Below, in pieces: positions 2,949 to 47,000 of a stretch of 55,383 bases of DNA (its first letter is position 1; each line of letters opens with the position of its first letter). The translations under genes and the position numbers were made by a program. Source of the stretch: Nemertoderma westbladi (taxonomy: Eukaryota > Animalia > Xenacoelomorpha); contig JAUCBJ010001399.1 of NCBI GenBank assembly GCA_032718475.1, positions 1 through 55,383 on the forward strand. The letters run 5' to 3'. The notes beneath the pieces were generated by a model. The model was not told the origin of the DNA. It saw only the letters and a program-made list of their open reading frames with translations, and searched no databases.

Positions 2949-4165
2949 TGTTCGCGCTTTCAGACCTTTGGCAGTTTAACCCGCCAAATTAAGATGTCTT
3001 CTAGATATTAAATCGCTTTTTAGCCTATGACAAGTATTTGATTCACTACACTAGTCGAAACCAATCCGTGCGCGACCATTCACCCGCTGGATATTCCCGG
3101 GAGATTGGGTTCGACGGTTTAATTTTATTGCTATGTAAGCCTAATGTATTATTCGACTGACAGTATTATATAATCTCTGACAATATTATTTACCTTCGGG
3201 AATATTAACAGTTCCTTTAGGACGTGGCGCTTTATCTATATAAACAGAGTTATGACTTAAACTACTCACAACGATATGGCTTAATTATAATTCACATATA
3301 TGGCGCATTCTTTAGGAATTGCTTCTTTAACAGGCTCGCTCATACGCAATGCTGCACAATACTGCACACTAATCTGCCAATCTTCACTGATTTTAGTCAC
3401 ATATAAAAGGAACACAGACTGACTCATGTAGGGTCTATCAAATAACATTAGATTCACTTCAAACCACTTTAACATAAGTCACAATCGTTATTGTTAACCT
3501 TTCTCTCTTACCTTCGGTATATCAAGAATATTGGGTGTCGGGGTTATTTCTCGTTATTCCAATATAATAATTCATCAACCAATATAATGAATAACCAACA
3601 ACAAATAGCAGTATACGGTATTGATTGAGCAGGTAATTTTAGCAGTTTCAGCAGTTATTAAAAGCCGTGTGGCAGCAGTTGCTGTCGCCAGGCAGTCCGT
3701 ATGATCATCAGTCAGTTAAAGGATATATGTCCTTGTAATTAAACCTACTAGTGTTGAGCTAAAAAGCATAAAACATAAAACACTAAAAGCCGTTCTTTCG
3801 TGGCTTTGAAAAACTCGTGACTACTGCTCTATACGAGGATACCAACTCCCTTATTCCACGAAGCTCCCGTTCAACACAGAGAAAGAGCAGTGAGATAGGA
3901 AATTTTCAGTTCAGTGCTCTGTGATAGGTCGAAATCAAGGCTAACTCAAATTCTATTGGGAGATACAACACAAGGCTATGACGCAACCTCCCTAGGCTTG
4001 TTGGCCGATTAAACAGAGCCCAGCTGCCTGCGTATAGCAAATCAGCCAATAAGCTGGTAACTTGCACTATTTTTAGTTATAGATCACTTTGAGAGTATTC
4101 TTAGCGACTGGGGGGGAACTGGCCAACAAGGCAAACTAATCAGTTATCCCACAAAAGCTTTTACA
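2949..4165 (-). repeat. 5' LTR of copy A (1217 bp, variant U3)
   Basis: Termini TGTTCGCGC...AAAGCTTTTACA as in the other LTRs. The first ~650 bp align with them; ~3650-4150 does not. Confidence 0.88.
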
Positions 4166-4166
4166 T

Positions 4167-6050
4167 TTGCCCAAGGGTGGAGTAGGTACACGCTGGGACA
4201 AGAATGTGTTATATATGATGGAACAACAACGAAGAGAGCCTACCATGGCTGATCTCATGTCATTCTTAGATGGAGAGGTAAAATTACAGCTCCTAAAGCA
4301 GACCAGAGAGAAGACACCGGAAAATAAGGTAAGTGAGAAACTCGTTTCTAGGAGAAAGGTAATACCAGTGTGTTATACCGAAAACGGCGAAAGCCAGACT
4401 TCTCAAGGAGAGGATAGTGGGAAAGACACTGAAAGATCTTACTATGACAACAAAGCGCCTAAGGACGTAAGTAAATTCAAGTCTCGAACCAATGACAGGA
4501 GAGAACAGGTAAGAAAAACTCCTCCTACGTCCCCTAAGAGAATTCATGTAAGAAAGCCCGAGGAAAGAACGAGTGTGCACAACGTTACTCAAAGTAAGGT
4601 AAGTAACATCAAACCAAAATGTGTGCTGTGCGACGGGCCCCACCGTTTAAGTGCGTGTGATGAATTCCTGAGGAAATCACTAAAGGACAGACGTGAAGTC
4701 ATGTGGGATAAGCGGTTGTGTTATAATTGCCTCAGACGAGGACACCAACGGCGAACCTGTTACTCCGACGCAAGGTGTGCAAAGTGCGGCGCAAAACATC
4801 ATATCTTGTTGCACACGGAATTCGAACGAAACAGCCCGAGTCAGGTAAGTGAGTCCGAACTACATGTCCAATTCAGTGATGTGAACGACACTGACCAATA
4901 TTCTGAAATGGAAGGATTCTATACGGACGAATTCTCCGACGAAAACGAATCCTGTTACCTGATAAATACTGCAGTGTATCGAGCACATACGTATGAAAAG
5001 GACACCGACAGCGAGCTCCCCCCAACTACTTCTGACCGACAACCACCTTGGAAAGCACCAACTTCCAATGTAGGAATCCGAGAATTTCCCGTAGTGCAGC
5101 TAAGGGTCCACGGACCTGAAAGGAGTTATATAGTGAACGCCCTTCTTGACTCCGGTAGCACAGGAACATTCATCGACAAAGAACTAGCCGAAGACATCTT
5201 TGCTGGACAACCCAAGTTCCGAACTAAGTTAAACATGTCAGGAATTATGCCGGTTTGGAAATCTACAGTAATCGCAGATTATTATGAAGGTGCGTTGTCC
5301 ACCCCCCAGGATGAACTAGGAGAACACAGCATAAGGTCAGTAAAAATGGTGGCGATAAAGAACTTCGCTACCAGCCAAGTAGAACCTTATAACTGGGATG
5401 AGGACGATTTCACCCAGCAGTTTGATATACCTAGATTCAACACAGATTACCCTGGAGTGCAAATACTCATCGGTCAAAATGCGCATGAGGCGCTCGAGAC
5501 ATTGGAGAAACGGCCTGCTCATCCGCAACCATTACAAGTCTATGCGGGAAGAACTAGAGTAGGTTGGTACTTTAGTGGCCCTTCACGTAGAACTCTAATG
5601 GAAAGATTACCAAAAGAACAGGTATATCAATTAAGTAAATGGGAAGTGGAGAGCAGTGAAGTTGACGACCCAACTGAGGGAACACCATACTCCTCAGATA
5701 ATGACGATATTAACTCCAATGTAGATCAATGGAGACATTGCCCCGAGACGATTAATCTAGCCGACATCGCTTCCAGAGGAGCAACTCCTCAAGAACTGAC
5801 AGATACTCCAGACCGGTTAGGTGGACCCGACTTCCTAAATAAAGAAGATGAATGGCCTCCTCATCTTACCCCGGCGAAGATTAGACAGGCCAAGGGAGCG
5901 GAGAAAGTAACACAACCACTCAATCGCCCAGCTGTTCGTTTATGTTTACTGGAAAGAGACCGAAAACTGTCCGTAAACTATGGAAGGCAAGATACTCTTC
6001 CCACGACCACCTCCCTAATCCAACAAATATCTAGGGACTCCATAACGTAA
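4167..6050 (+). CDS. C-terminal half of the Gag-protease polyprotein of copy B (5' part separated by insertion of copy A)
   Basis: Zn knuckles CVLCDGPHRLSAC, CYNCLRRGHQRRTC and CAKCGAKHHILLH; protease ALLDSGSTGTFI; RNase H tail QWRHCPETINLADIASRG. Roughly 85% aa identity to the 1367-aa ORF by eye. Confidence 0.9.
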   Translation: MPKGGVGTRWDKNVLYMMEQQRREPTMADLMSFLDGEVKLQLLKQTREKTPENKVSEKLVSRRKVIPVCYTENGESQTSQGEDSGKDTERSYYDNKAPKDVSKFKSRTNDRREQVRKTPPTSPKRIHVRKPEERTSVHNVTQSKVSNIKPKCVLCDGPHRLSACDEFLRKSLKDRREVMWDKRLCYNCLRRGHQRRTCYSDARCAKCGAKHHILLHTEFERNSPSQVSESELHVQFSDVNDTDQYSEMEGFYTDEFSDENESCYLINTAVYRAHTYEKDTDSELPPTTSDRQPPWKAPTSNVGIREFPVVQLRVHGPERSYIVNALLDSGSTGTFIDKELAEDIFAGQPKFRTKLNMSGIMPVWKSTVIADYYEGALSTPQDELGEHSIRSVKMVAIKNFATSQVEPYNWDEDDFTQQFDIPRFNTDYPGVQILIGQNAHEALETLEKRPAHPQPLQVYAGRTRVGWYFSGPSRRTLMERLPKEQVYQLSKWEVESSEVDDPTEGTPYSSDNDDINSNVDQWRHCPETINLADIASRGATPQELTDTPDRLGGPDFLNKEDEWPPHLTPAKIRQAKGAEKVTQPLNRPAVRLCLLERDRKLSVNYGRQDTLPTTTSLIQQISRDSIT

Positions 6051-15447: not shown

Positions 15448-17415
15448 TAATAATAATAATAATAATATATATTTATTTATATAGCGCCAAATTTACATCA
15501 TATACGTACTCTAAGGCGCTGACAACACATAGTACACAGTAATTAATAGTTCGTGACTGCAATAGCAATAGTTATGAAATAAAAAATCAACTAAAATAAT
15601 GTAGTAATTAAAAACCAACAATAAAAACATCATAAAATATAGTAAAAACAAACAATAAAAACGATCATCGTAAATATTGTAGCATATAGTAAAAAACAAA
15701 CAATAAAAAAAAAACGATCAACGCAAGCATTCCAGTGCGGGTTAAATTAAAATGTAATTAATGGCAGAATAGAATATAATGGCAGTGATAATGAATTAAA
15801 ATTAATAGTAAAAACAAACAATAAAAACAACTGTTATGGTGGACTTTTTAAGATTTAAAATATATTGATGTTAAAAACAATCGTGTATACATCCAGTACT
15901 TAAGTTAAAATTAAATTTAAAATTGAAAGTAATTAATTAAAAAATGTCAGTCGTCCATAAAAACAAATAAATAATGTTTAGTTTAGATTTAACTTCATAT
16001 GCACAGCGTAATATAGGACACTAGTTTACGTGGTATTCCAGATTGTACAGGTGAGTTTTTAGACGTTTCTTAAAAATGCCCACATTCGATGATTCGCGTA
16101 TGGCCGGAGGCAATGCGTTCCATACAGTTGGAGCAGCAATGGAGAACGATCGCCTACCATAATGTTCCGTATTGTAGCGAGGGGCCACGAGTAAACCCAG
16201 CCCGCTGGATCGCATCTCGCGGATGGGTACGTACGGAGTTAGTAAGTCGCTTAGATACTTCGGGGCACAGTTATTTACGCATTTCCAAGTTAGCAAGGCA
16301 ATTTTAAAGTCTATACGGCGAACTATAGGTAACCAGTGCAATGCTTTTAGGGTTGGAGTTATATGGTCCCTCTTCTTTACACCACATAGAAGTCGAGCCG
16401 CGGAGTTTTGAACGTACTGTAGTTTCTGAATGGATTTTTTTGGCAGACCGTAGTAGAGAGAATTATTGGCGTCAAGCTTTGATGTTACAAGTGCATGTAT
16501 AAGTATTTCCATGTTTTGTTTGTTGACGTATCGCTTTATCTTTGAAAGATTCCTTAAATGGAAGAATGCTTCGCGAACGGTGATTCCTATTTGCTTGCAC
16601 ATTGTAAGCTGAGAGTCTAATTCGAACCCGATATTGCGAACGTTTGGGCTGCACGATATTATGTCGCTCCCAATGGTCAGTACTGGGGGGACCTGCTGGA
16701 TGCCGAACCTAGACTGCAATAACAGGACTTTAGTTTTATCGGAATTCATTTTTAAGTAGTTTTTATCCATCCACTCCAGCACATCCACGAGGCAACTCTC
16801 AGTTACTTTTACAGCGCTGTTTAATTCAATTGGCTTGAAAATCAAATATAATTGTGTATCATCCGCGTAGAAATGACAATGTAGACCATGCCGCTTTATT
16901 ACAGCTGATAGTGAACGCGTGTATACCGTAAACAGAATCGGACCCAATACCGAACCCTGTGGTAGTCCATAGCGGAGGGGCTTTGCGATGGAATATGTAT
17001 TCCCAATACGCACCTGTTGCGAGCGCTCCGATAGATATGATACGAACCATTTAAGGGCGACGCCATCAATGCCAATGTCGTGTTTAAGTATCTGCAATAG
17101 TTTGCTATGTTCAACCGTGTCGAATGCCGCGCTTAAATCAAGTGTGATAAACAAACACACCGAACCATCGTCAATTCCACGAAGTACCGTATCAGCAACT
17201 GATAACAAAGCAGTTTCCGTACCGTGTAATGGGCGGTAGGCACTCTGGTAGGGTTCATGCAGACCGTTCAGATTCATGTGGTGCTTTAACTGCTCTACCA
17301 CCACCTTCTCAGTTAATTTGGAAATGTACAGTAAGTTCGAAACCGGTCTAAAGTGATTGAGTATTTCCGGGTCTAATCGCAATTTCTTTAGTATTGGTGT
17401 GAGAATTGCTAGACT
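15448..17415 (-). mobile_element. 5'-truncated L2/CR1-group LINE
   Basis: Intact RT ORF, then a 3' UTR ending GCGCCTTAGAG...GGCGCTATATAAATAAAT and a (TTA)n tail typical of L2. Confidence 0.9.
16021..17382 (-). CDS. Non-LTR reverse transcriptase (truncated ORF2)
   Basis: FRPVSNL, LDLSAAFDTV, GLPQGSVLGPILF, FYADDTQLY, LHWLP and VWNALP motifs. Confidence 0.93.
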   Translation of the reverse strand: MRLDPEILNHFRPVSNLLYISKLTEKVVVEQLKHHMNLNGLHEPYQSAYRPLHGTETALLSVADTVLRGIDDGSVCLFITLDLSAAFDTVEHSKLLQILKHDIGIDGVALKWFVSYLSERSQQVRIGNTYSIAKPLRYGLPQGSVLGPILFTVYTRSLSAVIKRHGLHCHFYADDTQLYLIFKPIELNSAVKVTESCLVDVLEWMDKNYLKMNSDKTKVLLLQSRFGIQQVPPVLTIGSDIISCSPNVRNIGFELDSQLTMCKQIGITVREAFFHLRNLSKIKRYVNKQNMEILIHALVTSKLDANNSLYYGLPKKSIQKLQYVQNSAARLLCGVKKRDHITPTLKALHWLPIVRRIDFKIALLTWKCVNNCAPKYLSDLLTPYVPIREMRSSGLGLLVAPRYNTEHYGRRSFSIAAPTVWNALPPAIRESSNVGIFKKRLKTHLYNLEYHVN

Positions 17416-19204
17416 TACTAGCTAGTATAATCTCATAATATTTCACAATCTTGAATAATTCATCTTTGGAGTATATTACCTCGAAAAATCGGGATTATAC
17501 AGATATAATACTGGTTTGTTGCCCCAGCAACGTGTAAACAAAAAGCGAGAATTAATTATAACTATTTTTTTTATAAACGGTTAGGTTTTATGGGAACAGC
17601 GTGAAAGGGGGAGATGTGGTTAATTGGGAAGCTCAGTTTGGGAGGCGTGCTGCGAGAGTAATGGATTTTGGTTCATCTGATATATTAAATGGATAGTAAA
17701 TGGGTTTATTTGCATCTTATCCAATATCCATACACACACGCAGCACAGCAACCCTCCCGCCCAGAGGTTCCCATTCAACCTCCTACCCACCACCTAAACT
17801 CTGTTCCCATAATTCCGCACCGGTTATAAAGGAAATACATTTAGTGAACCCGCGACCCCCTATTAACAGTTTAGTACCATCTGTATTAAACGCTACCGAA
17901 TAGACTCTCCTCTCCCCTTCCATAAGAACCTTTATTTGGTCCCCTTTGAGGTCCCAGAGTTTAGCGGTCCCATCGCTGGAACCGCTAACAACTATTCACG
18001 GGACAATTCCATCGTTACGAACCCACTTTCATACGCCATTTTCAAAATTAATTCGCATATTTAATTAATAACTTTACAATAAGAATAACATTATGTAATA
18101 CGATTCCACGCATGATTCATGCATCAATGCATAGTTTAAGACACACTATAGCCTTATTTATTTGATGTATTGCTTATATTAATTCGTACTAAATCATATT
18201 CATAGATTGTATAGTTAGTACTGTTACTGTTTACAATGACCAAATGCATACAGTAAATAAGAAAATCCCACAAACAAACGTGTTACCTTGGTTACCTTGG
18301 CCAGGGAAGTGACTTGGATGAGTAACAGCAATCCAATCAGATTTCCCATTTGTACTTGAGCAGTAGGCCTACTGCCGGTCAGAGCTACAGTAGAGATGAT
18401 CAGCTTCAGCATGATCTGCTTGGAGACAAGAGGAAACAGGAAGGTGCTGATATACCAGCCATTTATTCCTGAAAATTCTGCTAAAAGACACTCCAACGGT
18501 TCTTAGGTTTGAATTAGGTCTAGTAATTTACTTTGTTTTACTTTTATTTCAGGTTTAACCACCAATATAGTTGTGTAGCCGATATACAGATTACAATGTT
18601 AGGTGACACACAAGCTGAGCCAATCAGCAGTCCAGAGCTATTGTGTTAACATCCCCACCAAACTAACTGGTTGACCCAACGACCCTCTATGTGAGTTGAT
18701 TGCTATTAAATTAAAACGCTCGCATTGAAAGCAAAGAATTTGGCAGAAGAAACGTGGAAATACGAAATGGATTAATTCTAACGAGCCTCCATTTATAGTA
18801 TTAGTGGGTACGTAAATCTACCCCCGCTGTAGTTAACTAGCTATTCGACACAGTGGGGGGAATTATTAACCAGCAACCCAATGCCAAGGGGTTCTTGAGG
18901 AAATTAACGAATTTCTGGAAATTTATCAAGATTGGGGTGGGACCTGTCGGTTTTGGTAAAAGATACTATATGGAGTTACTGGGTGCTAAATATCTATTGG
19001 TCTATCTATCTACAGATAGCAACAGTTATAATGGGGAAAGGGGGGGGGGGGGGGCTATTAAATAATGTATTACTGTAAGAATTGCAGTATATTATAACGT
19101 TTGTTCCTGCGTTGAGACATCTTTATTTCTGTAGTAGTATTTACTGCATATTGAAAGTAATTTAATATATTTTAGTTATTTATTATTAATTAATAAAGTT
19201 GACA

Positions 19205-21045: not shown

Positions 21046-21480
21046 TGATCCCAGTCCCAGATAACAGAAGTCATCCACATACTCAAGCATACCATCCTTT
21101 GAGCTTATTATGCTCATATGATCCAACATTTATTTCTTAAGTACTTTCAAAGTTAACTGTCCATATTTTGGTCTACTTGGAGTTAACATAAAGACCAACA
21201 CTTGAAGCAGCCTATTCTAAAGCGCTGAGGAGCCGTTGGGCTACCTCTAGTGATTCTGAGAGTAGTCTTAAGTCATCAGCAAAGTTTAGATCAGTTAGGT
21301 ACTTGGCAGGATTTCCTCGACTTCTGGAGCCAGTAGGTGGAGTTACCATCACCCCATCATCATTATGATGATCTAAGGACATGCGTAGAACATAGTCAAC
21401 CACAATAATGAGCAAGAATCGTGCAAGTCTATCTCCGCGGAGGACACTCCATAAAACGTATGATCTGGGTCACCATCAAT
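21046..21480 (-). mobile_element. RTE-like LINE RT fragment
   Basis: IIVVDYVLRMSL...LTDLNFADDLRLL. Confidence 0.8.
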
Positions 21481-21864
21481 GTCAAAATCGAGCCTAGCAT
21501 ATTGGCACTGCTGCTTCAACCGTTGTAGGCAGGTCGATCAGTATGCCTGTCTGCCCATGGATCTGTTCTATTTTTCTGTGTGACTGTCGTATCTGCTCTA
21601 AAGAGCAATGGTAGTGGAGGTTATTTTTAAAATAAGAGTGAAAATTTAGCAAGCATACTCCTGATTGTGAGGCAAGAATGTTTCAAGTGTAAATATATTT
21701 CCTCAATTTTGTTTATTGATGCCATTCTTCTACTTTCATAATTTAATATTTTAAATAAATAATACTAATTAATTGAGAATTATCACCATTCTTCTTTATA
21801 CTGCATTTAAATTTAATAAACTGTTGAAACATATGGAAAATAAATGTTCTATTCAATTTAAATA

Positions 21865-23214
21865 ATGGCAGATACTGCAGTGAATCATTTTGAAAACAAC
21901 AGCAACGACTCTGAAGAAGAGATAGAAGACAGTGAGGCCAGCAATAAGGATGACGAGGGTGTGAGAAAGTTTAAGGACATGCTGAGGAGAAAAGAGAAGT
22001 CCACAACGGAGGTACGTCAGGACTGGCTGGCTCAGATACGGTTGGTGGAGGATGAGAAAAGCGCATTTTATAACGAGATGGAAATGAGAAGAGAAGAAAG
22101 GGAAGAGAGATTGAGAATGCTGCAGGAATTTGAGGAACAACATCGACAGAGAGAAGATGAGGATCGTTTGGAAAAAGAGGAGAAAGAGCGTCAAAAGCGA
22201 ATCGAATTTGAAGAGAAGAAAAGAAAGTCGAAATTAGGTATGACAGTAAGTGTAACTCCAGCTCAGATCATTAAAGAGAATGTAAGGAGAGCTCGCGAGC
22301 AGATGAATCAAGCAAAAGAAGATACACTGAAGGAACGTGATGAATATCTCAGCAGCAAGTTTCCAGGGATTGACTTCCAACTGTATACGGAGGAGTTACT
22401 CATTGACACCGCACGAGATCTTAATGAGAAGATAATGAAGCTCGCCGCTATCAAACATGACCTTCATGTGAAGAGTGGCATCCAGGAGTATGATATACGG
22501 GAGTTGAACTCGCGAGTAAGTGAACAACAACGGCGAATGAAGGAGAAGATTGGAGTTAATCGTTTGAGGGAGTTGGAACTCACAACAAAATATAGTCGGA
22601 ATACTTCAGATGTCCAGGGAATTCAAAGCAAAATGGCCAACTACATGCAAAAAGTGGACACGCAACGCGGAAAGAGTCCGACGATAGCACGAACGGGAGA
22701 TGTTTGGAGCCCAGTGATTGTGAATAACGACCGATGTCTCGCCTGTAAGAATCTCATCTATCACATGGAACGTTTGGAGGCCGACGGCAAGCTGTGGCAT
22801 TCAAAATGTTTCAGATGCACATCTTGTCAGAAACTACTAAACGTTGCTAATTATTATGTCCAAAACAACGAAATTTTTTGCGCCACTTGTAACAAGAAGA
22901 AGCTGAATGGTGAGAAGGAAAAGTTGACCAACAGCAGTGAAGCTATCTTTGGAAAGAGAACCTCAAGGTCTATAGAAATCACTAAAGGCGAAGATGATAC
23001 AGTTGAGTCTAAACCATTACTGAACGGAGGAGTTAACAAAGACCCAGGTGTCGCGGATAATACTAGTGAAGAAGAGGGAGATATCCAACAAAGAATCTGC
23101 AGTGATATAGAAGAGGAGGTGGAGGACGACAATGAAGGAGAAGGTATTGTCAATGAAGTTTTCGAAGATGTTGAAGAAGATGAAGAAGATGAGGAAGAAC
23201 TAGAATCTGATTAA
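21865..23214 (+). CDS. Intronless troponin T-like coiled-coil protein with C-terminal LIM domain and acidic tail (449 aa)
   Basis: An E/R/K-rich helix is followed by LIDTARDLNEKIMKLAAIKHDLHVKSGIQEYDIRELNSRVSEQQR, which resembles the TnT IT-arm. LIM domain CLAC..YHMERLEADGKLWHSKCFRCTSC..FCATC. Good ATG context and AT-rich UTR-like flanks. Confidence 0.8.
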   Translation: MADTAVNHFENNSNDSEEEIEDSEASNKDDEGVRKFKDMLRRKEKSTTEVRQDWLAQIRLVEDEKSAFYNEMEMRREEREERLRMLQEFEEQHRQREDEDRLEKEEKERQKRIEFEEKKRKSKLGMTVSVTPAQIIKENVRRAREQMNQAKEDTLKERDEYLSSKFPGIDFQLYTEELLIDTARDLNEKIMKLAAIKHDLHVKSGIQEYDIRELNSRVSEQQRRMKEKIGVNRLRELELTTKYSRNTSDVQGIQSKMANYMQKVDTQRGKSPTIARTGDVWSPVIVNNDRCLACKNLIYHMERLEADGKLWHSKCFRCTSCQKLLNVANYYVQNNEIFCATCNKKKLNGEKEKLTNSSEAIFGKRTSRSIEITKGEDDTVESKPLLNGGVNKDPGVADNTSEEEGDIQQRICSDIEEEVEDDNEGEGIVNEVFEDVEEDEEDEEELESD

Positions 23215-24521
23215 CTATTGTAAAATTACTTTCAATGTAAATTGATTATTTGAGAAGCTGCTTTTTCTAAATAACATTTAATTAACTTATCAACTTTTCA
23301 ATCTAACCCTTGTGTAGCAGTCAGTGCTTTGTTCTTACATGCATTTTATATGTAGTAAAAGTATTATTGTGTGGATTTAATGTATATATATAGTTGTTAT
23401 AGTTACTGCTTATTACATTCCTTATTACACAATAATTAAGTAATTGTTGAAAAATTCAAAATTTACATAGCAATATAATTATGATTATTAAACATTAAAT
23501 TATTAAAAGTAATTAAAAACAAATAAATAAGTAAACCAGATATTAAAAACGTTAATGCATTTCAAAATCTTGAGAACGTCTGGTTTTCAAAAATAATAAA
23601 GTAACATTATTGGAAACTCCATAAAGTTTGTATAGTTTTTGAGATCGAAAAAATCTGGGCCCACTTTACAACAATTGGTTGTTAGTTCTATTGTTGGCTG
23701 TTCAAAGAAGGTTGGTATTTATCAATGAAATGTTGTTCGTAGCCTTCTAATAAGTTTTCATGTCGACAACAGAAGAATGGGGCCACTTTAAATTGGTTTT
23801 CCCCGCAGTTGAGAAAGTGTTTACTACGCCTTAAATGTCTATAAAGTTCATTGAGTATTTGGTTTCTGTGGAGATTAATTGTTAAATTAGTCGTTAAAGA
23901 CGATAATAAAGACGATTGTTAAATTATTCTGGAACATTACTAATTTGCTACTTAATCTTCCCTACTGTTCCTTTTGTTTGACTTGTGTTATGTAATAAAT
24001 TTATGTATAATTTCAATGAATTTTATTTGTTGTAAGTCACTTTTCTGTCAAAGTCTTTTGACAAAAAAAGAACACCTTTTTCATCAACAAAAAAGTGATT
24101 TATGAATTAAATTTCAAGGTAATTTCCATGACATTAATTTTTTTAAACTAGCTAGTTTTAGCTAATTTTTGTAAATGTTGTTATAGAACACGTGTTAGCT
24201 ACCGGTATGAATTTTGTATTTGATATCAAACTAGCTAGTTTTGTTCTAATCAATTTTGATAAATATTTTTATCTAGAACACATTTTTTATTCTGAAACAC
24301 ATTTTTATTTTTATACTAGCTAGTTTTTTATACTTTTTTTATAAATGTTAAAGAGCTCGTTTTAGTTACTGTATGAATTTTGATAAATATTTTTGTTCTA
24401 GAACACATTTTTTCTAGAACATTTTTTGTAAAAATACCATCCTGCTGTCAGAAGGTCAAATATTTGTTATAGAAAAATAACCTCATGTTAAAAGCATTTT
24501 TATGAAACAAATGGTCAAATT

Positions 24522-31985: not shown

Positions 31986-34900
31986 TTACGTTATGGAGTC
32001 CCTAGATATTTGTCGGATTAGGGAAGTGGTCGTAGGAAGAGTATCTTGCCTTCCATAGTTTCCGGACAGTTTTCGGTCTCTTTCCAGTAAACATAAACGA
32101 CCAACTGGGCGATTGAGTTGTTGTGTTACTTTCTCCGCTCCCTTGGCCTGTCTAATCTCCGCCGTGGTAAGATGAGGAGGCCATTCTTCTTCTTCTTTAC
32201 TTAAGAAGTCGGATCCACCTAACCAGCCTGGAGTATCTATTAGTTCTTGAGGAGTTGCTCCTCTGGAAGCAATGTCGGCTGGATTAATCGTCCCAAGGCA
32301 ATGTCTCCATTGATCTATAGTGGAGTTAATATCGTCATTATCTGAGGAGTATGGTGTTCCCTCAGTTGGGTCGTCCACCTCACTGCTCTCCACTTCCCAT
32401 TCCTTTACTTGGTATACCTGTTCTTGAGGTAATCTCTCTTTGAGAGTTCTACGGGAAGGGCCAGTGAAGTACCAACCTACTCTAGTTCTTACCGCATAGG
32501 TTTGTAGTGGCTGTGGTTGAGCAGGCCGTTTCTCCAATGTCTCTAGCGCCTCATGCGCGTTTTGGCCGATGAGTATTTGCACTCCAGGATAATCTGTGTG
32601 GAATCGAGGTATCTTAAGCTGCTGGATGCTCTCGTCCTCGTCCCAGTTATAAGGTTCTACTTGGGTAGTAGCGAAGTTCTTTATAGCCACCATTTTTACT
32701 GACCTTATACTTTGTTCTCCTAATTTATCCTGGGGGGTGGACAACGCACCTACATAGTAATCTGCCGTTATGGTAGATTTCCAAACCTGCATAATTCCTG
32801 ACATATTCAACTTAGTTCGGAATTTGGGTTGTCCAGCAAAGATGTCTTCGGCTAGTTCTTGATCAATGAATGTTCCTGTGCTGCCGGAATCAAGGAGGGC
32901 GTTCACTATGTAACTTTTGTTAGGACCGTGAACTCTTACCTGCACTACAGGAAATTCTCTGATTCCTACGTTGGAAGTTGGAGGTTTCCAAGATGGTTGT
33001 CTGTCAAAAGTAGTTGGGGGGAACTCATTGTTGGTGTCCTTTTCGTAAGTAAGTGCTCGATACACCGCGGTATTTATTAGGTAACAGGATTCGTTGGCGT
33101 CGGAGAATTCGTCAGTATAGAATCCTTCCATCTCAGATTCTTGATCAGTGTCATTTACATCACTGAATTGGACATGTAGTTCGGGCTCACTTACCTGACT
33201 CGGGTTGTTTCGTTCGAATTCACTGTGTAACAAGATGTGATGTTTCGCACCGCACTTTGCACACCTTACGTCGGAGTAACAGGTTCGCCGTTGGTGTCCT
33301 TGTCTGAGGCAATTATAGCATAACCGCTTATCCCACATGACTTCACGTCTGTCTACCAGGGATTTCTTTAGGAATTCAGCACACACACTCAAACGGTGGG
33401 GCCCGTCGCACAGCACACATTTTGGTTTGATGTTACTCACTTTACCTTGGGTAACGTTATGCACTCTCGTTCTTTCTTCGGGCTTTCTTCCGTGAATTCT
33501 CTTAGGAGACGTAGGAGGAGTTGTTGTTACCTGTTCTCTCCTGTCACTGGTTCGAGACTTATATTTACTTACGTCTTTATAGGTCTTGTTGTCATAGTAA
33601 GATTTTGCTGTGTCTTTCCCGCTGTCCTCTTCTTGAGAAGCTTGGCTTTCGCCGTCATCAGTATAACACACTGGTGTTACCCTTCTCCTAGAAACGGGTC
33701 CCTCACTCACCTTATTTTCCGATGTTTTCTCTCTGGACTGCTTTATGAGTTGTAATTTTACTTCACTATCTAAGAAGGACATGAGATCAGCCATGGTAGG
33801 GCCTCGTCGTTGCTGCTCATTCATATACAACACTTTCTTGTCCCAGCGTGTACATACTCCACCCTTTGGTAAAGTAGAGACTACGGCTCCAATAACCATG
33901 GAACTCTGATATTCATGAGACTTACCCAACCAATCCAACTGTCTACAGATCTCCTGAATCTCATCGGAAAACTCTATAATCCCGCTACTAAGGAACTTTC
34001 GGGGGGCTACTAATTTTGCATACAAATACTTAGCTATGTTATCCTTGTTACCATACCTGATGTTTAATGTATCCCAAACTTGTCTTAATCCATCTGGGTG
34101 TCCAATAAACTTTAACGCCATTAACTTGGGAGGTCCTTCCAAGCACTTGATGAGGAATCTAAGTTTCTCTCCATTAGATAGTACAGAGTTCTGTATGCTA
34201 TCTTTGTAATATTCATTGAAAGGTAACCATTTCATCTCATCTCCATTGAATTTGACGATTTCTCCCACTTTGACAGCTTGGCGGGCTTCTGTTCTAGCCA
34301 TCTGACGCGTAAAGCTTTCTTGGGCCATCGTGTTATTTAATATCGAATTATCGGTATATAAATTTCCCGGATTATTATCAGGTCTATAGGGAATATCATC
34401 AACAACAGGTTTATAATTACCCTTAATAGGGTTTGCTATAGGAGTTTCTACTTCACTAGCAGTATAGATGCGTGTAGGCTCCACACCTTGCGCATGTAAT
34501 ACTTCAGACCTAACAGGTTGACATAATGTTACAGGGGGTATTGGTATACCCTTTTGTATATTGACTAATTTGTCGCGTTCTAGCGCGATACTTTGCTGCA
34601 CTTCTTGCAATTCTAACATACGTTCCCTTACTGTTCCCTTGAGTTGGTGGACAGTCTCCTGCATCTGTCCGAGCAGGAGATTCATCCCCCGCCGTCCCTC
34701 CTCTACCCACTCGACCGCCGAAGCGGGAGTCGCCAACATTGTAGCGGGCTGACGCGGGACGACGGGAGACAAATCTTTGATTTCTCTCTCAGTGTCCAGG
34801 ACAGGGATATTCGCATGGACTGTTCTACCGGGTACAGGCAGTGTAGTACTGTGTAGAGGGAATTTAGAGTTAAGCTCTGGAAGTACAGGGGTCTCTAGCA

Positions 34901-36089
34901 CAGGAGTGGATTTGGGAACGACAGGCCTAATTATTTCAGGCTCATCAACTATGGTAGGGAGTCTTTTGACCTTAATAATTTGGTCTGTGGGTTCTGTACT
35001 ACCTAAGTCTGTGCTAGCTAGTTGTCTTCTAACCGCTGGGGGCAAATCAGGCAATTTGTGACGGTGAGATGTTTTTCTACGCCTGCTTAGACGAGATCTA
35101 TTTCCTCCGCCTTCAGGATCGGTGGTCTTGCCTTCCTCCGATGATGTGTATCCTTGGCGTTTGGGAGTAGATCGACTCATCATCTGCATTTGACTAGCAG
35201 TTAACTGTTTATTTATGCAGTCTTGCGTCTCTTGCAGATTTTCCAACTCCAGTTGGGTAGTCTCCTCAGACGCTCTCCGTTCTGCTTCTGCCACTGCCTT
35301 TGCTGCTGCTGCTTTTGCTGCTTCCACTGCCGCTGCCGCTTTTGCCACTTCTGCTTCTGCCATTGCCGCTGCTACTGCTGCTGCCTTTCGGTCCTCTATC
35401 CGTTTTTTCTTTACTTGTTCTTCTTGGACTCTAGCGAGGCGGAGTTTTTCATCAAATTTAGCTTGGTTTGCAGCTAACATTTCCGCATCGATTGCGTCCA
35501 ACACAAGCTTGGTTCCTTCACTATTAGGGCAAAGTCCAGACAGTCGTCTCCTCAACTCTTTGTCTCCTAGGAATCGCTGATAGTCTGACAGATAGATGTC
35601 AATGGTGTCTCTAGTTCGCGGCTTCTCTGCTGCTGTTAATTCGCTTTCCACTTCGCTTTCCACTTCGCTTTCCACTTGAGAAGAAGTGGCGTCAGTTGAT
35701 TCTTCATAGGTTAGCCATTCATCATAAACTGTATCCGCCATCTTCGCTCCGCGTTCGGGCGTCCGCTCAACAGTATCCGAACTACTGGAGCTATCGGGCC
35801 GCTGAAAACTAGGTTCTTGGCTAGGATGTTGCTGCTGTTTGACAGCTGCTTCTTGATCCCGCTTGACTTGGGCCCGAGTGCCGATGATAGACCTACGGTG
35901 TTCTACTAGCCTAGGGTCTGACACTACTACTGTAGGGATGGCCTTTCTTACAATAGGAGGTGACTTAGACTTGGATCTAGGATGTTCTATACTTGGATCT
36001 GGGTCACTGATCTTTTTAAGACACTGTCTAACAGTCATTCTAACACTTTCTAAGAGACTATCTGACAGTGATTGGGTTGTGTCAGACAT
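31986..36089 (-). CDS. BEL/Pao Gag-protease polyprotein lacking RT and integrase (1367 aa)
   Basis: ~600-aa N-terminal extension, capsid-like KFNGDEMKWLPF...SNGEKLRFLIKCLEG, three Zn knuckles, ALLDSGS protease, WRH..NPADIASRG..W..G..FL..WP and LNRPVGRLCLLE. No RT YxDD region or integrase core. Confidence 0.93.
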   Translation of the reverse strand: MSDTTQSLSDSLLESVRMTVRQCLKKISDPDPSIEHPRSKSKSPPIVRKAIPTVVVSDPRLVEHRRSIIGTRAQVKRDQEAAVKQQQHPSQEPSFQRPDSSSSSDTVERTPERGAKMADTVYDEWLTYEESTDATSSQVESEVESEVESELTAAEKPRTRDTIDIYLSDYQRFLGDKELRRRLSGLCPNSEGTKLVLDAIDAEMLAANQAKFDEKLRLARVQEEQVKKKRIEDRKAAAVAAAMAEAEVAKAAAAVEAAKAAAAKAVAEAERRASEETTQLELENLQETQDCINKQLTASQMQMMSRSTPKRQGYTSSEEGKTTDPEGGGNRSRLSRRRKTSHRHKLPDLPPAVRRQLASTDLGSTEPTDQIIKVKRLPTIVDEPEIIRPVVPKSTPVLETPVLPELNSKFPLHSTTLPVPGRTVHANIPVLDTEREIKDLSPVVPRQPATMLATPASAVEWVEEGRRGMNLLLGQMQETVHQLKGTVRERMLELQEVQQSIALERDKLVNIQKGIPIPPVTLCQPVRSEVLHAQGVEPTRIYTASEVETPIANPIKGNYKPVVDDIPYRPDNNPGNLYTDNSILNNTMAQESFTRQMARTEARQAVKVGEIVKFNGDEMKWLPFNEYYKDSIQNSVLSNGEKLRFLIKCLEGPPKLMALKFIGHPDGLRQVWDTLNIRYGNKDNIAKYLYAKLVAPRKFLSSGIIEFSDEIQEICRQLDWLGKSHEYQSSMVIGAVVSTLPKGGVCTRWDKKVLYMNEQQRRGPTMADLMSFLDSEVKLQLIKQSREKTSENKVSEGPVSRRRVTPVCYTDDGESQASQEEDSGKDTAKSYYDNKTYKDVSKYKSRTSDRREQVTTTPPTSPKRIHGRKPEERTRVHNVTQGKVSNIKPKCVLCDGPHRLSVCAEFLKKSLVDRREVMWDKRLCYNCLRQGHQRRTCYSDVRCAKCGAKHHILLHSEFERNNPSQVSEPELHVQFSDVNDTDQESEMEGFYTDEFSDANESCYLINTAVYRALTYEKDTNNEFPPTTFDRQPSWKPPTSNVGIREFPVVQVRVHGPNKSYIVNALLDSGSTGTFIDQELAEDIFAGQPKFRTKLNMSGIMQVWKSTITADYYVGALSTPQDKLGEQSIRSVKMVAIKNFATTQVEPYNWDEDESIQQLKIPRFHTDYPGVQILIGQNAHEALETLEKRPAQPQPLQTYAVRTRVGWYFTGPSRRTLKERLPQEQVYQVKEWEVESSEVDDPTEGTPYSSDNDDINSTIDQWRHCLGTINPADIASRGATPQELIDTPGWLGGSDFLSKEEEEWPPHLTTAEIRQAKGAEKVTQQLNRPVGRLCLLERDRKLSGNYGRQDTLPTTTSLIRQISRDSIT

Positions 36090-38714
36090 GTTTACTTGTA
36101 CAGTTGAATGCCTACTGCTATGATTACAGCTAAAGCAAGTCTAGTAATTCAGTATCACTGGTAGCCTAATAATTAATTACCGATACTGCTACTCAGTGTA
36201 GCGTGATATATATATAATATATTAGAATACCGGTATGCTTATAGTATATATATAAGTATTATTACAGACTAGATTTGTCACAGAGTACCGGTATATAATT
36301 TTAGCACAAATATATATAAATATATAATAGGCCTATCGTGAATACCGGTATACAGCTGACACTTATAGTATATATAAGTATAATTATTACAGACTAGAAT
36401 TAATTACAGAATACCGGTATGATTTCAGCCTAAATTTATAGAATAAATATAATATGCCTATTGTAAATACCGGTATGTCAATTATTTTAAAATAATTGAA
36501 TTTCTGAATGTTAGGGGTTACTTGGTTACTTTACTTACTTTATTACCGTTATTTGAGCAGCAGTCCAACTGATATTAAGACCTAAGTGTTGTATAACAGG
36601 CCTACTATTTTATTAATAGATTTAGTGGATTTATATGTACCCGTATGAGGGGTTTTGTTACAATATTGAAATAGATGTTATTATTTCTGGGAATTAATCA
36701 CTACACAAAAGCTGTGCGCTCTCAGTGAAGTGCTACTTATTGGACACTAAAACAAATAATTATACTTCCTAAGTTACTTATCTACGAATTACTTACGATA
36801 CGGGTGAGATTAAATCTCTAATTAAACACAACAAAAATATTACGTACGAAATTTTAGGGTAATTTTACAGGGAACTACAAACCAGTCTAACAGAGTGTTA
36901 GATTTTCTGGTTATTACAACGGACAGGATACTATGGTATTTGAAAATAATAAGTAGTAGTAAATACACTGTGTTGTCCAGATAGGAAAATACCACTGTCT
37001 GACGACCTATAGCCGTATCGCTATAGGTACTACGTTATGTTTCACGGAGTGTTCCTACCTAGAAGTTAATTACCGCGGTCTACCAGAACCAACGTGCCTA
37101 TTAACCACTTTACAACACAAATATACTGCCTACACTCTAATTACCTTCGGAAAGCACTGTACACTAAACCCTAAATTAGGTACGAGTACTTGTACAACAG
37201 ATAATCAGTAGTTAAAAATACTTGAACAGTTAAAAGAACCACGGCATCTGCTGGAGTGACCGGAGCACAAAGTCGCCAGTCTTTACCTACGCCAAGCAGC
37301 CCGTGTAGTACCGGGGTTAATTTAACTATAACGGTATGTGTAACAAGCACAATTACTGTAGGAATAAACTTGGGGATATGAATGTTGCGAATAATCGCAT
37401 AAACTCTGAATAATAAATATTACGCTACCCGTACAGAATACTCAAACAAAATACAAACCAAACGCTGGCAGACTACCATCAAGCCTAAATAAACTACAGT
37501 ATGTGCAGATTCCAAAATGGTTAGTTAGTATGCGTTCTAACACGGTAGTACGACTTATTCTTTAGGAGGGGGTTGACCTTACAACTCAAGATGCCCCAAC
37601 TTACTAACTGGCACTTTATCGGACAGACTCTACACACGCAGCAATCTCTTCAGACCTAATAACAGCTAGACAACAATCCAGCCTACAAAATATCTGAGTA
37701 ATAACTATTACGGTACCTGAACAGACCACACAAACAAACATAGGCTAAAACGCTGGCTGTTGGCGAGAGTACACGCCATTGTAATATTCTTATCGAAAGA
37801 TATTAGATTAGCTTAGTTATCTTTAGGTACGCACCAAGAAAATTTTTGATATTTTATAATATATTATGGTCAGTCATATTGTCGTAAGAAATCTAAAATC
37901 TACTGTATAAATTACCTAATATGTGTGCAACGATACCTACAAATAACATTAGGTAAGTATTATTTAAACAACCCACCAAAAATATATTTAAAAAGGTGCC
38001 ATTTGCTAAATTTCTATTGGACGCCAGTCTTGCATTAGGCCAGGCGGGCATATGATTCATTCTATGTGCATAAGTCACAATACTTGTACAGTTGTACTCT
38101 TAAAACTCTAAAATTCTGAATTCTGTACTGTGCTGCACTACTATCAAGCCCAAATAAACTACAGTATATGCAGATTCCGAAATGGTTAGTTAGTATGCGT
38201 TCTAACACGGTAGTACGACTTATTCTTTAGGAGGGGGTTGACCTTACGCCTCAAGATGCCCCAACTTACTAACTGGCACTTTATCGGACAGACTCTACAC
38301 ACGCCGCAATCTCTTCAGACCTAATAACAGCCAGACAACAATCCAGCCCACAAAGTATCTGTACAATCTGAGCAGGGTTACACGCCTTCTGCTCAATATT
38401 AGCCTACTAGTAAATAAAACTGACAGAAATAGACCTAAGTAAAATCCCAATAAAAACCAGGCGTCCCCGATTTAATATCGAGACCTACAGGTATATAATT
38501 ATCAAAATCGAATAATACTGCTGTACCTGTACTGTTGTAAGTACCGGTCCGGGTGATCAGGCAGTCAGGCCTACAGATTACCGGTCGACCGGTACTTTAG
38601 TCTTGATCGCTTACGCCGCAATCAAGATCCTACAAACGGTTATTGTTCTTACCAGAACAATATTAAACTGTATTTATTGCCTACACTGCAATCAAGAATT
38701 TTACAAACGGTTAT

Positions 38715-41512: not shown

Positions 41513-41836
41513 TAGAACTCTACCCTCCTGTATGTTCCCATCCTTGTGGAACTCTACCCACCTGTATGTTCCCATCCTTGAGGAACTCTACCCACCTGTA
41601 TGTTTCCATCCTTGAGGAACTCTACCCACCTGTATGTCTCACTATTGAGGAACTCTACCCACCTGTATGTTTCCATCCTTGAGGAACTCTACCCACCTGT
41701 ATGTTTCCATCCTTGAGGAACTCTACCCACCTGTATGTCTCACCATTGGGGAACTCTACCCACCTGTATGTCTCATCATTGAGGAACTCTACCCACCTGT
41801 ATGTTTCCATCCTTGAGGAACTCTACCCACCTGTAT
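41513..41836. repeat. 33/34-bp minisatellite, distal block
   Basis: TTGAGGAACTCTACCCACCTGTATGT(TCCCATCC/CTCACCA) units, the same as in 47731-48510. Confidence 0.92.
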
Positions 41837-44013: not shown

Positions 44014-47000
44014 CCCTAATTGTAATGCGCCTAGCACAATAAAATCGCAATAAAATGAATCGATATTGTGGGTGGTCTCCTTTCTACATTCCGCCGATGT
44101 TCCCGTTCACTGCTGCGGCCCGCTGCTTAACCTGCCATCTGTCCCTCAGTTGGGTTCACCGTGGTGAATCATGTTAAAACAGATGTAACAATAATTCTAA
44201 CTTTATTACAAATAGCAAACAAATTACAAAAATAAAGCACAAAGATAATCTAAGAAGTAATAGGTGTAGCTAATGATTGAGTGAAGATGTTGAATAACTA
44301 AGATAAGATAACGAAGAGCTAAGTAAGTGAGTAAGTAAGTGATAACTAATCGAGCAAACGCACCTTTTATAGTAAATTAGTGCTGCCAATAATCTAGATA
44401 AATCTAGATCATTCTATAGGTTCCATTACGTTTTTAAAGATAACCATTGGTCCAACAAACGCATAACTTGCACGACATTGGTTACTGTCAAATAACTGCA
44501 ATCACATTGGTTAATCTACCTTGAGCAGATACAATTCAATCGTAGCGGTCAATTCAAATAAGTTGAAAATTGGCACAAAAAACAATTTACACCTGCTAGG
44601 GTTTGAACTCGATACCTACCAAACGATTTTCTAACGTATAACCAACTGTGCTAGGCTTGGGGTGAAACAGACTGCTGGGAGGGGGGAAAAAAAATAAGAA
44701 AACCAGTAGGAAAACAAGGAAAAACAGAAAGGGGAAAAGAGGGAAAAGGGAAGAAAAAAAGAAAAAATGTGAAAACATTAGACATATTGCTGAAATGATT
44801 TATTTTATAAGTAGATAAAAAAGTATGGTTTTCATTTTTAAATAGGACATTATTTTAACTACTTCCATTGAAACCCCAGTCAAAAATGTTCATGCGTATC
44901 GCATGTGGGTCACGCATCTAATTCGCATGCGAATCGCATGGGAAAGTGTCGGGACCTTTAGAAGCGATACGCTTGCGGATATCATGCGAAGTACCCATGC
45001 GTATCGCACGTGTCTAGCATGCGATTCTCTTCAGTGTAGAATAAACCAATGGCCATATATGACCAAATAAATTAACCCTATCTGGTCCGGTCTGTTTTAC
45101 TACTCAATTGGCCCAGGGGGGGGGGGGGGCAGAGGGGGGTCATTTTAGACATTTGTTTATATCTTGGCTCAAAAATTATAATTTCGATGGTTTAAAGGTT
45201 TTCGAGGTCGCTGTTTACGATAAAACTTGTTAAAAAAATATTCTGGCAATGCAACCATCATTTTTAGTGCCATCTGGTGCTCCAGAATGAAAAGTACAAA
45301 GTAGCAAAAATTTCAAACTGTTAAATTTTGCCTTTGGTTTGATAAGTCTAAAGCTGTACTGGTTTTCAAGGTCGCTGATCATGATACAACTCGTTAAAAT
45401 CATTCGTGGGAATATGAATGCAACTATGATCGTCGGTGCTTGTCTGCTCTGGGACGAAAAATATAAGTAGCATAAAATTTCAAACGACAATCGAATTTGG
45501 TCGGATAATATGATATTGAGTGGCATATATGTGATCTACAGTAGCATCCTAAAAAACACCTTATGTCATAAAATCAGGTTGATATTTGGTAATGATTTTG
45601 GAATATCAAATTTGTGCTACTTGTATTTTTCGGGCTGCACATTGACACATATCCAAAAATGCCGTAATTAACAAGGTACGATATTTTTTAGTGTCATATT
45701 CGTGATCATGGATCAGCATCCCGAAAAACTCAAGGTGAAAATCAATTTGATTTCGTGGTGATATTTAATTATCATATTTCATTATCATAATTGAAAGACA
45801 TTGTCGGACAATGTCAGAGAAAGTGAGTGGCAAACACTGTCGGACAATATAACACAGGTGGTTCGAGTAAATTACGGCGAATAAAGATACAAAAAAAACA
45901 AAGAAAGAAAAGATACAAGAAACGTTAAAGATATATTCTTTGATGTAATAACTTCAACGATAAACTATTACTACATAATGTAATTTTTCTAGAATAAAAA
46001 GAACATTTCCAGTAAACAGAAAACATTGCCGATAAAGTTTTTACATTTATTAAAAATTCAATTTCATTGATAAAAATAATGAATCTATAAACAATGCAGG
46101 AGTGGGAAATAATCTGCGCTATAATAACTTTTAAGAAACGAGAATAAAGACACAGATATAAAAAAGAACAATAATACCTCGTAATGGACATTGTAAGAAC
46201 GTAGGCCATATTTTTTATAATTTATTTACTCCAACATTAATAAGCGCCAAATTTATAACATGGAAACGTAGACATAATCGCCTCAACCATTAAGCAATGG
46301 AATGTCAGTGATTTAGAATCCCATCCCTCGGTGCCAGCGCCCCCACATAGCGCCGCCAACCCATCCATCCATTGGTTGAGATCGGTATCGTCCTTAGCAA
46401 CGAACAACCACTCAGGGCCGCCTTTTTAACATTTAAAGTTTATTTAACATATTAACAATCTTAATGATATTATTTCATACAATAAGCAGGACAAAATAAT
46501 CTCCACTCCAGTTAAAGTTTAACGGTATATACTATATATCCATCCATCTTACTCATCGCTGTCGCTATCAAGTATTATTAGTTGCATGGCCAATGGAATT
46601 TGGTCCTGGAAATGGCAGAGGTAAAGATAACGTTGATTTACCACGTCTGGGTTGATGGTTCTCTTCACACGATAACAGCAAGGGTGGACCAATCAACTGA
46701 TAGCTCCTGAAATGAGGTCGTCGATTACTCCGGATATCCTGGGTTTGAATTTCCTTCCGGAGTTGTTTAAATGAATAACCATTAGCTTTCATGTCCCGAG
46801 AATTTAGTAAGGAAGGTATAGAAGTTATTGTCAATCATTTATTACTATGTATTATAATTTCAGCTCTATAATATTCACCACCACCATATTTTACTTCATA
46901 TGTATTAACTTTGCCAATTAAATCCCGTTGAAAATTCCTAACTTCTCTCTCTAAGTCAACCGCCCATGCCATATTGCTTTGTCATGCCGACAATATACAA

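What the first reader, a model, noticed from the sequence alone, without database searches (positions are those of the whole stretch)
21865..23214. Intronless troponin T-like protein fused to a LIM domain
Seen: one 449-aa exon with an acidic N-terminus, a charged helix, a heptad segment, a complete LIM domain (~22735-22890) and a Glu/Asp tail. Known: the helix and heptad segment parallel invertebrate TnT (L...A.EL...I.KL...K.DL.....Q.YD..EL..R..QQ.R), insect TnT has a poly-Glu tail, and the Y.MERL.ADG..H..CFRC LIM type occurs in actin-associated MICAL/EPLIN/LASP-like proteins. I know of no described TnT-LIM architecture. Inference: a thin-filament regulator coupling tropomyosin/TnI binding to a LIM actin or strain-sensing module, possibly a retrogene. 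It is intact amid decayed repeats.
Basis: partly seen in the sequence, partly recalled or inferred. Interest (0 to 1): 0.78.

Follow-up and report, generated by a model that had tools for sequence, protein, structure and literature searches.

The report
Troponin T fused to LIM domain
An animal genome carries an unbroken gene that joins a divergent troponin T-like muscle protein to a LIM zinc-finger domain; the same pairing sits in starfish and brittle-star database proteins without a name that shows it, and it likely tethers the muscle thin-filament switch to other actin-scaffold proteins.

Summary
The ORF is real: 449 aa, no stops, complete 8-ligand LIM at 22735-22890. Residues 132-229 are troponin T-like beyond generic coiled coil: the 12 best of 16 PDB hits are TnT, none TnI; Pfam Troponin E 2e-4, below its cut-off. 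The N-terminal charged helix alone gives no TnT hit.

The architecture is not unique. Troponin+LIM proteins exist in Acanthaster, Patiria, Asterias and Amphiura under inconsistent automatic names, and the Acanthaster gene lies in a published TnT orthogroup. Five paper searches found no description of the fusion; the nearest is a weak troponin hit on a sponge EPLIN.

The window protein is 24-28% identical to the echinoderm proteins and adds an acidic tail. Common origin is favoured by collinearity and a weak linker match, but the tree does not resolve it and the LIM subtype differs. Host lineage, expression and retrogene origin are not shown. No earlier scan note covers this protein.

Most likely it is a TnT paralogue that docks on TnI/tropomyosin and uses its LIM as a cytoskeletal adaptor; strain sensing is less likely. 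Verdict: an undescribed variant of a known protein.

The parts
21865..23214 (+). Uninterrupted ORF, 449 aa, troponin T-like protein with LIM domain and acidic tail
21865..21954 (+). Acidic N-terminal segment (aa 1-30), in the place of the variable N-terminus of TnT
   Evidence: charge count; low pLDDT; the parallel to TnT is established knowledge
21940..22233 (+). Long charged helix (aa 26-123) in the place of the TnT T1 tropomyosin-binding helix; homology rests on position, not on its own score
   Evidence: helix; aligned collinearly to cardiac TnT; no TnT or Pfam hit alone
22258..22359 (+). Helix aa 132-165, first helix of the TnT T2 region
22390..22548 (+). Helix aa 176-228, the IT-arm (TnI-binding) helix with the TnT-type K.DL......Q.YD motif
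   Evidence: Pfam Troponin E 2.1e-4; PDB TnT hits; motif columns conserved across 10 homologues
22549..22734 (+). Linker aa 229-290; about 19 aa shorter than in asterozoans; its last 45 aa weakly match the asterozoan linker
22735..22890 (+). LIM domain, aa 291-342, eight zinc ligands, ending CxxC (asterozoan relatives end CxxH)
23050..23211 (+). Glu/Asp-rich, predicted disordered tail (aa 396-449), absent from the asterozoan relatives
23522..23600 (+). Candidate polyadenylation signals AATAAA at 23522 and 23595, in AT-rich DNA where such matches are common
   Evidence: use not shown
21480..24130 (.). Single-copy island (within this window) that holds the gene, between LINE-like fragments and minisatellites

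Best explanation
This is an unbroken gene for a divergent troponin T-like protein with a C-terminal LIM domain, likely a fast-evolving member of the same TnT-LIM family found in starfish and brittle stars, which likely works as a structural adaptor on tropomyosin-coated actin filaments. Shown: the domains, their order, the TnT-over-TnI affinity, and the echinoderm proteins with the same order. Inferred from the known troponin core: helix 176-228 would pair with troponin I as the IT coiled coil, and helix 26-123 would lie along tropomyosin. Inferred from CRP/MLP and EPLIN-class LIM proteins: the LIM would bind actin-scaffold proteins (alpha-actinin or dense-body components), anchoring the TnT/TnI unit rather than switching it. 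The acidic tail would be a disordered, possibly cation-binding modulator like the Glu-rich extension of insect TnT (recalled; only the paper's title was seen). Loss of introns by retroposition is plausible but not shown.
For: IT region alone: the 12 best of 16 PDB hits are TnT, none TnI. Aa 21-245: the 11 best of 13 hits are TnT; ESM Atlas best hits are TnT family at 0.91 with 191-201 of 256 shared features. All 4 proteins found among 1.84 billion representatives carry a Pfam Troponin match, and 1 of the 4 (Acanthaster XP_022088333) also carries a LIM. A search with that protein found 4 of 592 candidates, all Troponin+LIM, from Acanthaster, Patiria, Asterias and Amphiura. A profile built from asterozoan proteins only scores the window protein 82.7 bits (E 2.3e-22) over both parts in order; tblastn gives one HSP from the T2 region through the LIM (E 4e-22). 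Linker match: 24 of 2000 shuffles reached the HMM score and 30 of 5000 the summed alignment score; the linker adds about 10 bits to the LIM. The Acanthaster sequence matches oki41-28, placed in the TnT orthogroup in PMC5888912 (supplement parts read). Asterozoan relatives have isoforms that differ by blocks in the N-terminal part, i.e. they are likely spliced genes.
Against: Pfam Troponin score 21.6-22 bits is under the 26.2 cut-off. The T1-like helix has no TnT hit alone, and PMC5888912 reports poor conservation of tropomyosin-binding sites in ambulacrarian TnTs. The IT helix lacks the Trp and two Phe of cardiac TnT (read from the alignment). In a 10-row tree the window protein is a long branch (2.21) that does not join the four TnT-LIM proteins; 0% of 200 bootstrap trees hold the five together; the AU test merely fails to reject it (p 0.168). 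Its best IT-region identity is to a LIM-less sea-urchin TnT (38% over 86 aa). Its LIM hits CRP/MLP best (43.5 bits; EPLIN 37.4) while the asterozoan LIM hits EPLIN best (69.8 bits), and unrelated LIMs score as well or better on the asterozoan profile (49-56 against 45.4 bits). The linker windows were chosen after seeing the alignment, and one of four species gave no signal (868 of 5000).
Confidence: 0.55

Rival explanations
1. Independent fusion: a TnT copy captured a CRP/MLP-type LIM in this lineage, converging on the architecture seen in asterozoans; it would work in the same adaptor role.
For: LIM ends CxxC and hits CRP/MLP best against CxxH and EPLIN in asterozoans; the tree does not group them; part of the linker may be ancestral TnT C-terminus, since a LIM-less TnT aligns to the same profile stretch, though at only 0.5 bits.
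Against: Same order and similar spacing of IT arm and LIM; linker similarity above shuffles; EPLIN-like MERL and NY positions shared; all parts of the window protein are diverged, so subtype scores are noisy; one clade not rejected.
Confidence: 0.2
2. A retrocopy of a spliced TnT-LIM parent that has been co-opted outside muscle (for example in sperm or epithelia) and no longer assembles into troponin; it would act as an actin/tropomyosin-binding scaffold alone.
For: No intron in a genome that has introns (WD40 exon with AG/GT ends in this window); repeat-rich site; long branch and lost aromatic residues; no second troponin gene found in the window, whereas the Acanthaster TnT and TnI genes bear neighbouring ids (oki41-27, -28, -31).
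Against: No poly-A remnant or target-site duplication was evident by eye; no parent could be sought because no genome is held; an earlier unchecked note reports another intron-free gene in this genome.
Confidence: 0.15
3. A force-sensing troponin: the LIM binds strained F-actin and shifts tropomyosin through TnT, replacing or adding to calcium sensing by troponin C, which ambulacrarians lack.
For: TnC loss in ambulacrarians (PMC5341096, PMC5888912); the fusion is conserved in animals without TnC; one testin LIM can find strain sites (PMC8684727); periodic troponin spacing could supply avidity (inference).
Against: All mechanoresponders in the screen of 10.1101/2020.03.06.979245 have three or more tandem LIMs and a conserved Phe; the window LIM is single and appears to have Tyr330 at that site (register from a recalled FHL2 sequence, not from a call); the host's TnC status is unknown.
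Confidence: 0.07
4. A young processed pseudogene that is not expressed.
For: Repeat-rich site; only about 385 unique bases between a LINE-like fragment and the ATG; no TATA or strong acceptor match in my simple scan.
Against: 450 open codons, all eight zinc ligands and the IT motif kept at only 24-28% identity to relatives; good start context; coding-type composition to the stop.
Confidence: 0.03

Closest known systems
Asterozoan Troponin+LIM proteins: Acanthaster planci XP_022088333, Patiria miniata XP_038047763, Asterias amurensis XP_071809444, Asterias rubens XP_033645905, Amphiura filiformis XP_072035131 (database records)
   Same: Charged helix, T2/IT region, linker and one C-terminal LIM in the same order; 24-28% identity.
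   Different: They have longer, variable N-termini with several isoforms, an EPLIN-like LIM ending CxxH, about 19 more residues after the IT helix, and no long acidic tail. Their names (troponin I-like, troponin T-like, trichohyalin-like, vicilin-like, uncharacterized, LIM zinc-binding domain-containing) never state the fusion.
Ambulacrarian troponin T orthogroup of Inoue and Satoh 2018 (PMC5888912; passages and supplement parts 1, 11, 12, 13 of 16 read)
   Same: Contains oki41-28, which matches the Acanthaster TnT-LIM by its printed residues; poorly conserved tropomyosin sites; hemichordate members show a KENVR-RA stretch also seen at window aa 137-143 (by eye).
   Different: No LIM is mentioned for these genes in what I read; whether the hemichordate and sea-urchin members of that clade carry a LIM is not shown there.
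Vertebrate cardiac and fast skeletal troponin T (PDB 8FMN, 1J1D, 6KN8, 1YTZ)
   Same: Collinear T1-T2 layout; IT-arm motif conserved.
   Different: No LIM; vertebrate TnT works with TnC; key aromatic residues differ.
Arthropod-type troponin T with Glu-rich tail (session proteins P0018, P0019; insect TnT recalled, Cao et al. 2020 seen only as a title in a reference list)
   Same: TnT core plus acidic C-terminal tail.
   Different: No LIM; the window protein lacks their conserved C-terminal TnT block, so the tail is probably convergent.
Amphimedon EPLIN Aqu1.213741 with a 'troponin-like' domain (Koch et al. 2012, PMC3305314; passages and Table S1 row read)
   Same: An N-terminal Pfam Troponin hit ahead of a single LIM at residue 351.
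   Different: The hit is weak (E 0.0074) and may be generic coiled coil; the sponge protein has the EPLIN motif, which the window and asterozoan proteins lack; troponins are called bilaterian novelties in PMC5167519. Not tested here.
CRP/MLP, EPLIN/LIMD2 and MICAL class LIM proteins
   Same: LIM sequence and fold.
   Different: No CRP glycine-rich motif, no EPLIN motif, no troponin part in those families.

Membership tests
Troponin T | T2/IT-arm helix homologous to TnT rather than TnI | tested here: met
   12 best of 16 PDB hits TnT, none TnI; family profile 45.6 bits on TnT against 28.3 on TnI; asterozoan-only profile 36.4 against 24.2
Troponin T | Pfam Troponin PF00992 above the curated cut-off | tested here: not met
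   21.6-22 bits against 26.2, E 2e-4; 2 of 4 asterozoan relatives and the Lytechinus TnT also fall below it
Troponin T | T1 tropomyosin-binding helix | tested here: inconclusive
   long charged helix in the right place, aligned and predicted, but no TnT hit alone (0 of 6)
Troponin T | Placement in the TnT orthogroup on a tree with TnI as outgroup | tested here: inconclusive
   no TnI or chordate TnT sequence was available for the tree; long branch; the Acanthaster relative is so placed in PMC5888912
Troponin T | Binds TnI and tropomyosin; expressed in muscle | not testable with these tools
   no TnI or tropomyosin sequence held for a complex prediction; no RNA run was listed
Troponin I | TnI-type IT helix followed by the inhibitory region | tested here: not met
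   no TnI hit for the window protein; the stretch after the IT helix is deleted relative to relatives
LIM domain | C-x2-C-x16-23-H-x2-C-x2-C-x2-C-x16-21-C-x2-C/H/D and the two-finger fold | tested here: met
   all eight ligands; Pfam 44.4 bits; model matches solved LIMs, e.g. rmsd 1.5-1.7 A to LIMD2 and MLP
EPLIN class | 22-aa EPLIN motif directly after the LIM | tested here: not met
   motif as printed is absent after C342 (by eye)
CRP class | Glycine-rich motif after each LIM | tested here: not met
   definition; absent (by eye)
Asterozoan TnT-LIM family | Same domain order and collinear alignment through IT arm, linker and LIM | tested here: met
Asterozoan TnT-LIM family | One clade for the TnT part and for the LIM | tested here: inconclusive
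   not recovered, not rejected (AU p 0.168); LIM scores do not discriminate
Mechanoresponsive LIM proteins (zyxin, paxillin, FHL) | Three or more tandem LIMs with a conserved Phe | tested here: not met
   one LIM; criterion; Tyr at the Phe site rests on a recalled register
Retrogene | Intron-bearing parent in the same genome, lost intron positions, poly-A or target-site duplication | not testable with these tools
   no genome held; homologues' exon borders not available, their isoform differences lie mostly N-terminal of the aligned core

The most novel reading that the evidence does not exclude
TnT-LIM is an old, overlooked troponin subunit: one fusion of troponin T with an EPLIN/CRP-type LIM, inherited by this animal and by asterozoans, that gives the thin-filament switch a calcium-independent anchor or force sensor where troponin C is lost; if the host lies outside Ambulacraria, the fusion is also a rare shared genomic character for deep bilaterian relationships.
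Probability: 0.15. Interest if true: 0.82.

Novelty: new variant of a known kind. Interest (0 to 1): 0.52.

Why it matters
Echinoderms and hemichordates keep troponin I and several troponin T genes but lack troponin C, and how their thin filaments are regulated is stated as open in PMC5341096 and PMC5888912. A conserved TnT that carries its own LIM domain is a concrete candidate for what these extra TnT genes do, and starfish and brittle-star versions can be tested now. The window gene extends the architecture to a much more distant sequence, so it marks either an old origin or a repeated invention. If the gene proves to be only a diverged retrocopy, the family it exposes still lacks a description in the papers I could search.

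Tried and rejected
Whole-protein word-index search: none of 7993 candidates scored (swamped by low-complexity words, no evidence of absence). Profile search with alignment A1: 6 of 7987, namely the Acanthaster protein, 3 LIM-only proteins and 2 LIM-less TnTs. Metagenome scan: 23 loci, all matching the LIM side only, none reaching the TnT part; scan stopped at 49 of 64 parts. Sequencing runs: no RNA holder listed, so no reads were laid; this is no evidence on expression. No genome held, so no parent or TnI/TnC partner could be sought. ESM Atlas with the Acanthaster protein: no usable hit. TnI reading considered because RefSeq names two relatives 'troponin I-like' and the segment after their IT helix recalls the TnI inhibitory region (recalled); rejected on scores. 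Read-through of a donor at 22910 as the source of the acidic tail: considered, judged unlikely from codon-position composition. Extra exons or paralogues in the window: the asterozoan profile found only this ORF among 2393 six-frame pieces. Host lineage: earlier notes held none of the taxon words tried and 4 of 4 other window ORFs were absent from the protein collection; lineage stays unknown beyond 'intron-bearing animal'. Foldseek on the whole model returned LIM folds only among the top rows, no troponin chain; long single helices are uninformative there. No complex prediction was sent, since no TnI or tropomyosin sequence was held. The paper on the insect TnT tail (PMC7086023) is not held. 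Subscription journals were not searchable, so a description of the fusion there cannot be excluded.

Full report
Observation. The window holds one open frame at 21865-23214 (+) of 449 aa. A stop lies two codons upstream of the ATG, the start context is AxxATGG, and GC drops from about 0.43 in the frame to 0.22-0.30 on both sides. None of 300 base shuffles gave a frame over 252 codons. The LIM is complete at 22735-22890 (Pfam E 2e-11), and the AlphaFold2 model (mean pLDDT 65.8, five-row alignment) shows three long helices, a folded LIM and disordered ends; Foldseek matches the LIM to EPLIN, MLP and LIMD2. The acidic tail has coding-type composition up to the stop.

Is the N-terminal half troponin? 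Whole-protein Pfam gave no Troponin hit, but aa 21-245 gave E 2.8e-4 and aa 132-229 E 2.1e-4, both under the curated cut-off. Against the PDB, which is full of coiled coils, the 11 best of 13 hits for aa 21-245 and the 12 best of 16 for aa 132-229 were troponin T, none troponin I. The ESM Atlas ranked TnT clusters first at 0.91, a score that shuffled proteins reach 4-10 times in 100. A full HMMER scan of 1.84 billion representatives returned 4 proteins, all with Pfam Troponin matches. Family profiles score TnT well above TnI. The signal comes from the T2/IT region: the charged helix aa 31-123 alone hit no TnT (0 of 6) and no Pfam family.

The architecture is a family. One of the four representatives, Acanthaster planci XP_022088333, carries Troponin and a C-terminal LIM. 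Searching with its residues 198-445 gave 4 of 592 candidates: Acanthaster, Patiria, Asterias and Amphiura, each with LIM and a Troponin match (E 7e-8 to 2e-3; 2 of 4 above cut-off). Their database names are inconsistent and none states the fusion. The search needs shared 5-residue words and a length of 247-788 aa, so the four genera are a lower bound. In Inoue and Satoh 2018 (PMC5888912; passages; supplement parts 1, 11, 12, 13 of 16) the printed residues of A. planci oki41-28 match this protein; it sits in the TnT orthogroup beside sea-urchin SPU002797 and two hemichordate genes. I saw no mention of a LIM for these genes, and the authors note weak conservation of tropomyosin-binding sites.

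One origin or two? For one: a profile built from nine asterozoan sequences without the window protein scores it 82.7 bits in two ordered parts; tblastn gives a single HSP from T2 through the LIM; the linker matches above shuffles (24 of 2000; 30 of 5000 summed, and 13, 101, 868 and 39 of 5000 per species), while 5 of 5 segments upstream of unrelated LIMs scored -51 to -62 against 47. These windows were chosen after seeing the alignment. Against: the LIM alone scores no better than unrelated LIMs (45.4 against 49-56 bits), ends CxxC and hits CRP/MLP best, whereas the asterozoan LIM ends CxxH and hits EPLIN best; the closest IT region by identity is a LIM-less sea-urchin TnT; in a tree of 10 rows and 117 columns (most near-identical isoforms and all LIM-only proteins left out; no TnI or chordate TnT available) the window protein is a long branch that joins none of them, and one clade is neither recovered nor rejected (p-AU 0.168). 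I put common origin at about 60-65%.

Genomic setting. The gene lies in a 2.65-kb single-copy island in a window that is 54% self-repeated. No other troponin-like piece is in the window. The genome has introns: a 181-base WD40 exon at 48492-48672 (-) has AG and GT ends, followed by a satellite made of its own donor site. A second WD40-like piece lies at 17786-17995 (-), so the gene may be nested antisense in an intron, but the phases do not join directly and this is unproven. Asterozoan relatives have isoforms differing by blocks, which implies splicing. Retroposition is therefore plausible, but no parent, poly-A tail or target-site duplication was shown. The host lineage could not be fixed.

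Mechanism. From the known troponin core, helix 176-228 would form the IT coiled coil with TnI and helix 26-123 would lie on tropomyosin; both are inferences. LIM domains of the CRP and EPLIN classes stabilise or bundle actin and link it to alpha-actinin or adhesion sites (PMC3305314 passages), so the simplest role is an anchor that ties the TnT/TnI unit to the filament scaffold. Strain sensing is possible but less likely: the responders in 10.1101/2020.03.06.979245 all have at least three tandem LIMs and a conserved Phe (passages), although one testin LIM suffices in cells (PMC8684727 passages). The context that makes this worth testing is the loss of TnC in ambulacrarians while TnI remains essential for larval swallowing (PMC5341096, parts 1-2 of 4 read). 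Whether the host itself lacks TnC is unknown; Xenoturbella, for one, has all three subunits (PMC10951248 passages).

Literature. Five full-text searches aimed at the fusion found no description; one search returned two unrelated clinical reports and none. The nearest statement is in Koch et al. 2012: the Amphimedon EPLIN has a 'troponin-like' domain, Pfam E 0.0074, which I could not test. Subscription journals are outside the library. Earlier scan notes held nothing on this sequence or architecture.

Verdict. A real, intact gene; troponin T-like plus LIM; a distant representative of an architecture conserved in asterozoans and not described in the papers searched.

Noticed in passing
window 48492-48672 (-) with 47738-48512 and 41515-41836: A WD40 exon whose 3' end and splice donor are repeated as a 33/34-base satellite in the next intron, with a second array 6 kb further on; the same 'mirage' type that earlier notes report across this genome.
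   Followed up: partly
window 17786-17995 (-): A second WD40-like coding piece (Pfam E 5e-7); if it belongs to the same gene, the TnT-LIM gene is nested antisense in a long intron. Phase does not fit a direct join.
   Followed up: partly
window 54556-55186 (+): Two overlapping frames that together look like one secreted, Cys-rich protein with a Thr run and a hydrophobic, GPI-signal-like end (Ly6-like by recall); a frameshift or small intron lies near 54780-54900. No informative Pfam hit.
   Followed up: partly
window 31986-36140 (-) and 4140-6050 (+): Two copies (87% identical over 4 kb) of a BEL/Pao-type gag-protease region (DUF1759, aspartyl protease); one has a 1384-codon open frame; no RT domain was detected in these frames.
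   Followed up: no
window 16021-17421 (-): Open 466-codon non-LTR reverse transcriptase frame, single copy in the window.
   Followed up: no
window 46240-46425 (-): Short piece resembling the C-terminal helix of a PH domain (Pfam E 0.03), without obvious flanking exons.
   Followed up: no
protein P0005 (WP_411017577.1): A troponin T-like fragment is filed in NCBI as a Salmonella hypothetical protein on a 395-base contig; almost surely animal contamination.
   Followed up: no
window 52296-52910: 51 copies of a 12-base unit at 96% identity, open in several frames; likely non-coding satellite.
   Followed up: no
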